DNA of 64,000 bases, from the NCBI RefSeq assembly GCF_009914755.1, contig NC_060947.1; one strand, given 5' to 3'. Source of the stretch: the human T2T-CHM13v2.0 reference genome, Homo sapiens. How positions within the stretch are numbered: the first letter of the stretch is position 1; each line of letters starts with the position of its first letter. The notes under the pieces are model-generated. The model was not told the DNA's origin, made no database searches, and saw only the letters and a list, made by a program, of their open reading frames with translations. Position numbers and translations under genes: made by a program. Of the stretch, positions 1-6,881 are shown one piece after another.

Positions 1-6
1 ACACAC

Positions 7-54
7 ATGAGATTCTTCAGGCTCACTTTCAAGTGCTTCGTGGACTGCTTCTGA
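7..54 (+). CDS. Upstream ORF in the SLC6A8 5' leader, 15 aa MRFFRLTFKCFVDCF*
   Basis: ATG 7-9, TGA 52-54; 22/48 GC inside an otherwise extremely GC-rich leader; ends 185 nt before the SLC6A8 ATG. Translation cannot be shown from sequence. Confidence 0.7.
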   Translation: MRFFRLTFKCFVDCF

Positions 55-182
55 CTGCGCCGCCCGCGCCCCGCACCCCGCCGCCCGCCCGCCGCCCCGT
101 CCCCCGGCCCGGCCGCCCCCCGGCCCCCGGCCGGCCCGCGCCCTCGGGGCCCTCCCCGGTGCCGCCGGTGCCCCCCGCCTGA

Positions 183-6881
<6,699 letters not shown>

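What the first reader, a model, noticed from the sequence alone, without database searches (positions are those of the whole stretch)
7..54. Phe/Cys-rich 15-aa uORF in the creatine transporter leader: candidate metabolite-sensing arrest peptide
Seen in sequence: ATG7...TGA54 encodes MRFFRLTFKCFVDCF*. It has 5 Phe (all TTC) and 2 Cys (both TGC), and ends in a repeated CF-VD-CF motif abutting the stop. The 48 nt are 46% GC and switch abruptly to a leader of almost pure G/C, which suggests coding constraint. Its start context is weak (cacATGa), whereas the main start 185 nt downstream is optimal (gccATGg), a leaky-scanning layout. Established: short uORF peptides stall ribosomes in response to a metabolite (AMD1 MAGDIS with polyamines; fungal arginine attenuator peptide), and creatine uptake is known to fall under creatine loading. 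I recall SLC6A8 appearing in conserved-peptide uORF surveys but cannot verify that here, so existence may be reported while mechanism is open. Inference: a nascent-peptide sensor for creatine/phosphocreatine (or Phe/Cys tRNA charging or redox) giving feedback control of transporter synthesis. It would also be a place to look for non-coding creatine-deficiency variants.
Basis: partly seen in the sequence, partly recalled or inferred. Interest (0 to 1): 0.85.

Follow-up and report, generated by a model that had tools for sequence, protein, structure and literature searches.

The report
Known conserved uORF in SLC6A8 leader
The 15-codon upstream reading frame in the creatine transporter mRNA leader is real and shows signs of coding constraint, but it is already published as a conserved, peptide-dependent brake on translation, and whether it senses creatine is still untested.

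Summary
ATG7..TGA54 encodes MRFFRLTFKCFVDCF*, with a weak start context; the main ATG at 240 is strong.

An open 15-codon frame is not beyond chance (P about 0.55), but two features are.
- The only strong AT-rich island in an 86-93% GC leader is window 1..56, which matches the uORF.
- G+C by codon position is 3/14, 5/14 and 12/14 (p about 0.0005-0.0008). This is a coding-constraint signature.

The element is already in print.
- Mackowiak 2015 reports a 15-aa SLC6A8 uORF conserved across vertebrates.
- Takahashi 2020 shows that a frameshift relieves reporter repression in HEK293T. Its discussion already proposes creatine feedback or bypass by leaky scanning.
- Martinez 2022 lists the mouse uORF among Ribo-seq-annotated smORFs and says the peptide is identical in several species.

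I found no test of creatine dependence. Known creatine feedback on uptake runs through new protein synthesis and Txnip, which weighs against the sensor idea.

A new detail: all three chr16 paralogues carry AGG in place of the uATG.

Verdict: already known; the mechanism is partly open.

The parts
7..54 (+). 15-codon upstream ORF (MRFFRLTFKCFVDCF*) in exon 1 / 5'UTR of SLC6A8
   Evidence: Sequence and translation. It is one of only 2 upstream ATGs in the RefSeq leader -409..239 and the only one giving 15 aa. G+C by codon position is 3/14, 5/14, 12/14.
1..10 (+). uORF start codon (7-9) in weak initiation context acacacATGa (C at -3, A at +4)
   Evidence: In all three chr16 paralogues, position 8 is G, so ATG becomes AGG.
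52..55 (+). uORF stop TGA followed by C
   Evidence: That UGA-C is a poor termination context in mammals is recalled knowledge, not from a call. The frame stays open for 47 more codons if the stop is read through.
1..56 (+). AT-rich island (about 46% G+C) inside an 86-93% G+C leader, matching the uORF plus 6 nt of start context and 2 nt after the stop
   Evidence: Maximal-segment scan and sliding 48-nt windows.
55..239 (+). 185-nt spacer between uORF stop and main start: 93% G+C (112 C, 60 G, 9 T, 4 A), no ATG
   Evidence: No fold better than shuffled controls. No Rfam match.
240..501 (+). Start of the SLC6A8 main coding sequence (coding part of exon 1), ATG in strong context ggggccATGg
   Evidence: plus the hub annotation. 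G+C by codon position is 0.62, 0.54, 0.97.

Best explanation
This is the already published conserved-peptide uORF of the creatine transporter mRNA. It acts in cis as a peptide-sequence-dependent brake on translation of the SLC6A8 main ORF.

Proposed course of events:
1. Scanning 43S complexes cross a very G+C-rich leader and meet a uAUG in weak context, so only a fraction initiates.
2. Those ribosomes make a 15-residue peptide. It is still wholly inside the exit tunnel when the UGA enters the A site.
3. The peptide, most likely its conserved C-terminal part, slows the last elongation steps or termination.
4. The stalled ribosome cuts re-initiation and blocks ribosomes that scanned past the uAUG.
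5. Without the stall, the short uORF and the 185-nt ATG-free spacer would allow efficient re-initiation. This fits the higher reporter output of the frameshift mutant.

Inferred: that the repression is a ribosome stall, where it occurs, and that the human uAUG is used in vivo.
Open: whether any ligand or stress tunes it.
For: Sequence layout:
- uORF, weak uAUG context, strong main AUG, ATG-free 185-nt spacer.
- The RefSeq leader has only two uATGs, and the other gives 6 aa. The published 15-aa SLC6A8 uORF must therefore be this one.

Coding constraint seen in the sequence alone:
- The AT-rich island at 1..56 matches the uORF.
- G+C is 3/14, 5/14, 12/14 by codon position, p about 0.0005-0.0008. 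Main exon 1 shows the same pattern.

Print:
- PMC4568590, one passage: 'a 15 aa uORF in ... SLC6A8 conserved across vertebrates'.
- PMC7530721, section 6 with the Figure 2 legend, read whole, plus discussion passages. SLC6A8 is one of 8 of 17 tested human CPuORFs in which a frameshift that changes the conserved residues significantly raised reporter expression in HEK293T.
- bioRxiv 10.1101/2022.03.12.484025, two passages. The Slc6a8 uORF is among smORFs annotated from mouse adipocyte Ribo-seq, and its peptide is identical in several species.

No RNA-level explanation:
- The fold is no better than shuffles: z = +1.54, and 93 of 100 shuffles fold at least as well.
- 0 Rfam matches at E up to 1.
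Against: - I could not align any other vertebrate leader, so cross-species conservation rests on print only.
- The supplement of PMC7530721, which gives the exact position and sequence of the tested uORF, could not be opened. Its identity with window 7-54 is inferred, not seen.
- No toeprint, disome or Ribo-seq pause for this uORF was found in any paper I could search, so 'stall' is inference.
- The size of the reporter effect is only in a figure that I could not see.
- I found no human ribosome-profiling or CAGE evidence. Transcription starting upstream of position 7 rests on the RefSeq model (hub annotation: exon 1 from -409).
- The weak uAUG context means that few ribosomes may translate the uORF.
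- The mouse paper's legend says 14 amino acids, against 15 codons here. This is unresolved.
- A frameshift also changes the codons, so a codon-level effect rather than a peptide-level effect is not strictly excluded.
Confidence: 0.8

Rival explanations
1. Creatine-sensing arrest peptide. The nascent peptide in the tunnel stalls the ribosome more strongly when intracellular creatine or phosphocreatine is high. This would give direct feedback on transporter synthesis.
For: - The element sits in the transporter's own leader, is reported as conserved across vertebrates, and represses in a peptide-dependent way.
- The same hypothesis is raised in the discussion of PMC7530721.
- PMC10725494 (passages) infers an unidentified intracellular creatine sensor working in the millimolar range for AGAT. 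Its authors 'can imagine' post-transcriptional control through the ribosome.
- Known precedents are the AMD1 MAGDIS peptide and the fungal arginine attenuator peptide (recalled, not from a call).
Against: - No experiment on creatine dependence was found. The searches were made, in a library limited to CC-licensed PMC papers and bioRxiv.
- Repression was seen in HEK293T with no creatine treatment mentioned in the passages and sections I read.
- In PMC3725544, substrate down-regulation of uptake occurred with a rabbit transporter cDNA transgene and was relieved by cycloheximide. It needed Txnip and came with lower transporter mRNA. That route needs new protein synthesis, the opposite of arrested transporter synthesis.
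- No copy of the peptide's C-terminal 8 residues was found elsewhere in the genome. Exact matches were the X copy and its 3 chr16 duplicates only (4 of 4). The 13 two-mismatch hits compare with 7 hits for the reversed control pattern.
Confidence: 0.12
2. Stress-bypass uORF of the CHOP/GADD34 type. The uORF is a constitutive inhibitory barrier. When eIF2-alpha is phosphorylated or energy is short, more ribosomes scan past the weak uAUG, so transporter synthesis is kept up or raised.
For: - There is a single inhibitory uORF with C at -3 and A at +4, upstream of a strong main AUG.
- Inhibition is peptide-dependent.
- The discussion of PMC7530721 names this alternative: bypass by leaky scanning under ATP deficiency.
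- The CHOP layout it resembles is recalled, not from a call.
Against: - I found no data on SLC6A8 translation under stress.
- The one stress paper holding both terms (PMC10897314, passages) reports only an ATF4-dependent rise in Slc6a8 mRNA in brown fat. It does not link this to the uORF.
Confidence: 0.15
3. Trans-acting microprotein. The conserved 15-residue hydrophobic, Cys-containing peptide is released and has a function of its own. Repression of the main ORF would then be a by-product. This does not exclude the cis role.
For: - The mouse adipocyte study lists it among conserved microproteins likely to be functional.
- Selection acts at the amino-acid level.
Against: - The only functional data are in cis.
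- No detection of the peptide was found. A search for the peptide string returned 0 papers.
- A 15-residue peptide made from a weak start is likely to be scarce and short-lived (inference).
Confidence: 0.1
4. Not a peptide-level element. It could be an ordinary chance uORF that merely captures ribosomes, or a conserved DNA or RNA motif (promoter-proximal site or structure) that happens to be open.
For: - A 15-codon open frame after an ATG is expected about half the time at this composition.
- The region lies in a CpG-island promoter close to the PNCK start on the other strand (hub annotation).
Against: - G+C periodicity is specific to the uORF frame.
- The island edges match the ORF edges.
- A frameshift that keeps almost all nucleotides relieves repression.
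- There is no special fold and no Rfam family.
Confidence: 0.05

Closest known systems
The published SLC6A8 conserved-peptide uORF (Mackowiak et al. 2015, PMC4568590; Takahashi et al. 2020, PMC7530721; Martinez et al. 2022, bioRxiv 10.1101/2022.03.12.484025)
   Same: Same gene and same leader. The length of 15 aa agrees with Mackowiak. It is the only 15-aa ATG uORF in the RefSeq leader. Conservation, translation in mouse and frame-dependent repression are all reported for it.
   Different: Nothing known differs. The exact coordinates and sequence used in those papers are in supplements or figures that I could not open, so identity is inferred. The mouse legend says 14 aa.
AMD1 (S-adenosylmethionine decarboxylase) MAGDIS uORF: polyamine-dependent stall at termination (recalled, not from a call)
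   Same: A short uORF in the leader of a gene of the sensed pathway. Its repression depends on the peptide sequence, and the peptide is still in the tunnel at termination.
   Different: It is 6 residues against 15, with no sequence likeness. Its ligand and stall site are shown, and neither is shown here.
Fungal arginine attenuator peptide (arg-2 / CPA1 uORF) (recalled, not from a call)
   Same: A weak uAUG with leaky scanning to a strong main AUG. A ribosome stalled at the uORF stop blocks the scanning ribosomes behind it.
   Different: It is 24-25 residues and fungal. The arginine response has been shown in vitro. There is no sequence likeness.
DDIT3/CHOP uORF: inhibitory peptide-dependent uORF with weak start, bypassed under eIF2-alpha phosphorylation (recalled, not from a call)
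   Same: A single inhibitory uORF, a weak start context and peptide-dependent inhibition.
   Different: The stress response of SLC6A8 translation is untested. The CHOP uORF is longer and its stall motif is different.

Membership tests
Conserved-peptide uORF (CPuORF) | AUG-started ORF lying wholly in the 5' leader of an annotated mRNA, ending before the main start | tested here: met
   ATG7..TGA54, with the main ATG at 240. RefSeq exon 1 is -409..501 (hub annotation).
Conserved-peptide uORF (CPuORF) | Amino-acid sequence conserved across distant taxa | not testable with these tools
   No vertebrate genome other than this one is held. Reported in print as conserved across vertebrates, as selected for a well-conserved C-terminal region, and as identical in several species.
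Conserved-peptide uORF (CPuORF) | Signature of selection on the encoded residues rather than on the nucleotides | tested here: met
   G+C is 3/14, 5/14, 12/14 by codon position, with Fisher p 0.0008 and permutation p 0.00046. The island at 1..56 matches the ORF. This comes from a single sequence, so it is indirect.
Conserved-peptide uORF (CPuORF) | Translated in vivo (ribosome footprints) | not testable with these tools
   The uORF is listed among smORFs annotated from mouse adipocyte Ribo-seq. No human profiling report was found. Both papers holding SLC6A8 and Ribo-seq were examined, and neither gives human footprints for it.
Sequence-dependent regulatory uORF | Changing the peptide by frameshift relieves repression of the downstream ORF | not testable with these tools
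   Reported for the SLC6A8 CPuORF in HEK293T dual-luciferase assays, as one of 8 of 17 tested. Effect size not seen.
Metabolite-responsive ribosome arrest peptide (MAGDIS / arginine attenuator type) | Ribosome stall mapped to a defined codon of the uORF | not testable with these tools
   No report was found.
Metabolite-responsive ribosome arrest peptide (MAGDIS / arginine attenuator type) | Stall or repression varies with the concentration of a small molecule | not testable with these tools
   No report was found. It appears only as speculation in the discussion of PMC7530721. The known feedback route runs through Txnip and new protein synthesis.
Stress-bypass uORF (CHOP/GADD34 type) | Weak uAUG context upstream of a strong main AUG | tested here: met
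   acacacATGa against ggggccATGg.
Stress-bypass uORF (CHOP/GADD34 type) | Main-ORF translation kept up or raised under eIF2-alpha phosphorylation | not testable with these tools
   No data found. PMC10897314 reports an mRNA change only.

The most novel reading that the evidence does not exclude
The SLC6A8 uORF peptide, held in the ribosomal exit tunnel, is a direct low-affinity (millimolar) sensor of intracellular creatine or phosphocreatine. It would set the rate of transporter synthesis. This would be the first molecular creatine sensor, of the kind inferred but not identified for AGAT regulation. It would also be the first vertebrate-wide metabolite-sensing arrest peptide outside polyamine metabolism. 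The idea is already voiced in print as speculation, so only its proof would be new.
Probability: 0.1. Interest if true: 0.75.

Novelty: already known. Interest (0 to 1): 0.3.

Why it matters
SLC6A8 loss causes X-linked creatine transporter deficiency, for which the paper read says there is still no efficient treatment. How cells set their creatine content is also only partly understood.

A conserved, peptide-dependent translational brake in the leader matters in three ways.
- It is a plausible control point for transporter abundance.
- It is a place to look for non-coding patient variants. Changes that strengthen the uAUG context or add upstream ATGs should lower transporter output.
- It is in principle a handle for raising translation from hypomorphic alleles by hiding the uAUG (inference).

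None of this is new to the field. The element, its conservation, its repressive action and the creatine-feedback hypothesis are all in print. The open and directly testable question is whether any ligand or stress tunes it.

Tried and rejected
1. Cross-species alignment was not possible. The collections on hand hold no other vertebrate genome, so conservation rests on three papers.
After that I read main texts only.
4. I looked for ancient paralogues of the peptide in other genes. A back-translated pattern for the last 8 residues plus the stop, run over the whole genome, gave 4 exact matches: the X copy and 3 chr16 duplicates. It also gave 13 AT-rich two-mismatch hits, against 7 hits for the reversed control pattern. 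I read the two-mismatch hits as chance.
5. I used the chr16 paralogues as a test of constraint. There was 1 substitution in 48 uORF sites against 27 of 345 (two copies) or 29 of 345 (third copy) in flanking leader sites. Fisher p was 0.23 and 0.15, so not significant. The test is also confounded by CpG content: 1 CpG in the uORF against 34 in 166 nt and 36 in 185 nt in the flanks.
6. RNA structure: L001 1440-1760 folds at -144.1 kcal/mol, but shuffles average -151.3. The z-score is +1.54 and 93 of 100 shuffles fold at least as well. There is no evidence of a selected structure.
7. Rfam gave 0 matches at E up to 1 over L001 1000-2100.
8. N-terminally extended forms look unlikely. The frame is open for 47 codons upstream, to a stop at -137, but the only in-frame near-cognate codon is AGG at -77.
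9. The Phe/Cys tRNA-charging and redox ideas have no evidence for or against them. I did not pursue them.
10. One search failed on a mistyped reference and was corrected.

Full report
**Observation.** Window 7-54 on the + strand reads ATG AGA TTC TTC AGG CTC ACT TTC AAG TGC TTC GTG GAC TGC TTC TGA, which is MRFFRLTFKCFVDCF*. All five Phe are TTC and both Cys are TGC. The start context is acacacATGa, with C at -3 and A at +4. The main SLC6A8 start at 240 is ggggccATGg. The stop is followed by 185 nt of 93% G+C with no ATG.

**The rest of the leader.** The window begins inside exon 1, so I fetched the flank from the window's own genome. L001 position equals window position plus 1500. By the hub annotation the RefSeq leader runs from -409 to 239, which is 649 nt. 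It holds only two upstream ATGs.
- One is at -155 and gives MSPAPR*.
- The other is the 15-codon uORF at 7.
- Both have C at -3.
- The uORF frame is open for 47 codons upstream, to a stop at -137. The only in-frame near-cognate codon there is AGG at -77, so an extended form is unlikely.

**Is it more than chance?** An open frame of this length is not. At the local composition, 14 sense codons stay open with P about 0.55. Two other features are beyond chance.
1. The leader is 85.6% G+C upstream and 93% downstream, and the 50 nt before position 1 are 100% G+C. The uORF itself is 45.8%. A maximal-segment scan places the best AT-rich segment at window 1..56. That is the uORF plus its 6-nt start context and 2 nt after the stop. 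The second-best segment is the first 56 nt of the main coding sequence. The lowest 48-nt windows all sit on the uORF, and 500 non-overlapping windows never fall below 0.69.
2. G+C by codon position in codons 2-15 is 3/14, 5/14 and 12/14. Fisher p is 0.0008 and the permutation p is 0.00046. Main coding exon 1 shows the same pattern: 0.62, 0.54 and 0.97 over 87 codons.

In a region where unconstrained sites have drifted to almost pure G/C, first and second positions held at A/T while third positions follow the drift is what selection on the encoded residues produces. It is the best evidence a single sequence can give.

**What is in print.** The element is already described.
- *Mackowiak et al. 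[quoted passage not shown] Only one ATG uORF of 15 aa exists in the leader, so this is the same element.
- *Takahashi et al. 2020* (PMC7530721; section 6 with the Figure 2 legend read whole, discussion and methods passages) chose 17 human conserved-peptide uORFs. Sixteen of them were picked for well-conserved C-terminal regions. They placed the uORFs before luciferase and compared the wild-type peptide with a double frameshift that alters the conserved residues. In 8 of 17, SLC6A8 included, the frameshift significantly raised expression in HEK293T. [quoted passage not shown] As an alternative, it suggests the uORF could be bypassed by leaky scanning under ATP deficiency.
- *Martinez et al. 2022* (bioRxiv 10.1101/2022.03.12.484025; two passages) list the mouse Slc6a8 uORF among smORFs annotated from adipocyte Ribo-seq. 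They say the peptide is identical in several species. Their legend says 14 amino acids, which I cannot reconcile with 15 codons because figures are not held.

The supplement of PMC7530721, with the exact construct and taxonomic range, could not be opened.

**Is creatine sensing tested anywhere?** I found no such test. The library holds only CC-licensed PMC papers and bioRxiv, so work in subscription journals could be missed.

| Search | Papers holding the terms |
|---|---|
| SLC6A8 + uORF | 6 (5 listed) |
| creatine transporter + upstream open reading frame | 3 (2 listed) |
| the peptide string | 0 |
| six-term search, at least 3 terms | 493 (25 listed; only PMC7530721 held both SLC6A8 and uORF) |
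| SLC6A8 + Ribo-seq | 2 |
| SLC6A8 + microprotein | 3 |
| GATM/creatine/uORF set, at least 3 terms | 265 (15 listed, none relevant beyond PMC7530721) |
| SLC6A8 + CPuORF | 2 (1 listed) |

Two papers bear on plausibility.
- *Tropak et al. 2023* (PMC10725494; passages) infer an unidentified intracellular creatine sensor, working in the millimolar range, that controls AGAT. They 'can imagine' control through the ribosome. That leaves room for a ribosomal sensor.
- *Zervou et al. 2013* (PMC3725544; abstract and passages) point the other way. High creatine lowers uptake in fibroblasts that express the transporter from a rabbit cDNA transgene. The fall is relieved by cycloheximide, needs Txnip, and comes with lower transporter mRNA. 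This feedback requires synthesis of a new protein, which is not what arrested transporter synthesis predicts.

Their text also cites the older cycloheximide result in muscle cells. I saw this only as their summary of that earlier paper.

**Other checks.**
- The leader segment L001 1440-1760 folds at -144.1 kcal/mol, which is no better than shuffles (mean -151.3, z = +1.54; 93 of 100 fold at least as well).
- No Rfam family matches.
- A whole-genome search with a back-translated pattern for the last eight residues and the stop found exact matches only at the X locus and three chr16 duplicates. The 13 two-mismatch hits compare with 7 for the reversed control. No other gene carries a recognisable copy of the peptide.

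**The chr16 paralogues.** Three copies on contig C16 (L002-L004) are 94-95% identical over the first 300 nt. In all three the uATG is AGG (T to G at window 8), and the ATG of the mini-uORF at -155 is ATA (G to A at -153). The other 47 nt of the uORF are unchanged.
- The uORF shows 1 substitution in 48 sites. The flanking leader shows 27 of 345 in two copies and 29 of 345 in the third.
- This difference is not significant (p 0.23 and 0.15), and CpG content confounds it.
- All three copies share both losses. I infer that the losses came before the chr16 copies multiplied.
- The AGG variant is a natural start-codon knockout that could serve as a reporter control.

**Mechanism.** I commit to the following, and mark what is shown and what is inferred.
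- *Shown here:* the layout, and a coding-constraint signature.
- *Shown in print:* conservation, mouse Ribo-seq annotation and frame-dependent repression.
- *Inferred:* a 15-residue chain cannot leave the exit tunnel before termination. The tunnel length is general knowledge, not from a call. A peptide-dependent cis effect must therefore arise inside the ribosome, most simply as slowed final elongation or termination. The stop is TGA followed by C, which I recall as a poor termination context in mammals. A ribosome held there would lower re-initiation and block ribosomes that leaked past the weak uAUG. Without the hold, a short uORF followed by 185 ATG-free nt should allow re-initiation, and this fits the derepressed frameshift mutant.
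- *Open:* whether the hold is tuned by creatine, by stress, or by nothing.

I put the published peptide-dependent cis brake at 0.8. Elaborations and rivals are creatine tuning at about 0.12, stress bypass at about 0.15, a trans-acting peptide at about 0.1, and a non-peptide explanation at about 0.05.

**Verdict.** The finding rediscovers a published conserved-peptide uORF, and its central hypothesis is already stated in print.
- the frame-specific G+C periodicity and the matching island edges as single-sequence evidence;
- the loss of both upstream ATGs in the chr16 paralogues;
- the practical warning that lysates regenerated with creatine phosphate would mask a creatine-dependent stall.

Novelty: already known. 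Interest: 0.3.

Noticed in passing
L002, L003, L004 positions about 1341-1760 (chr16 copies); corresponds to window -160..260: The genome holds three chr16 paralogues of the SLC6A8 5' end, 94-95% identical over 300 nt. PMC10725494 speaks of two pseudogene copies. In all three, the 15-codon uORF start is AGG instead of ATG and the upstream mini-uORF start is ATA. The main ATG and its context are intact. They also carry a 6-nt deletion in a GCC repeat.
   Followed up: partly
L001 1345-1365 (window -155..-135, outside the window): A second, 6-codon upstream ORF (MSPAPR*) with a weak context (gcgccgATGt) lies in the same frame as the 15-codon uORF and ends at the TAG at -137. It has no AT-rich island around it, and I found no report of it.
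   Followed up: partly
L001 1197-1242, 1390-1410, 1436-1480 (window about -303..-258, -110..-90, -64..-20): GCC/CCG trinucleotide runs of 7 to 16 copies lie in the leader upstream of the uORF. One of them differs in length between the X gene and the chr16 copies. Such runs are often length-polymorphic; I did not examine this further.
   Followed up: no
window 1176-1264: The hub annotation lists an alternative first exon here. Transcripts starting there would lack exon 1, and so would lack both the uORF and the first 87 codons, and would escape this control. I did not examine the sequence.
   Followed up: no
window 55-195: If the TGA at 52-54 were read through, the frame stays open for 47 more codons of Pro/Arg/Ala-rich sequence, up to a TGA at about 196-198. 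The stop is followed by C. No evidence of read-through was sought.
   Followed up: no
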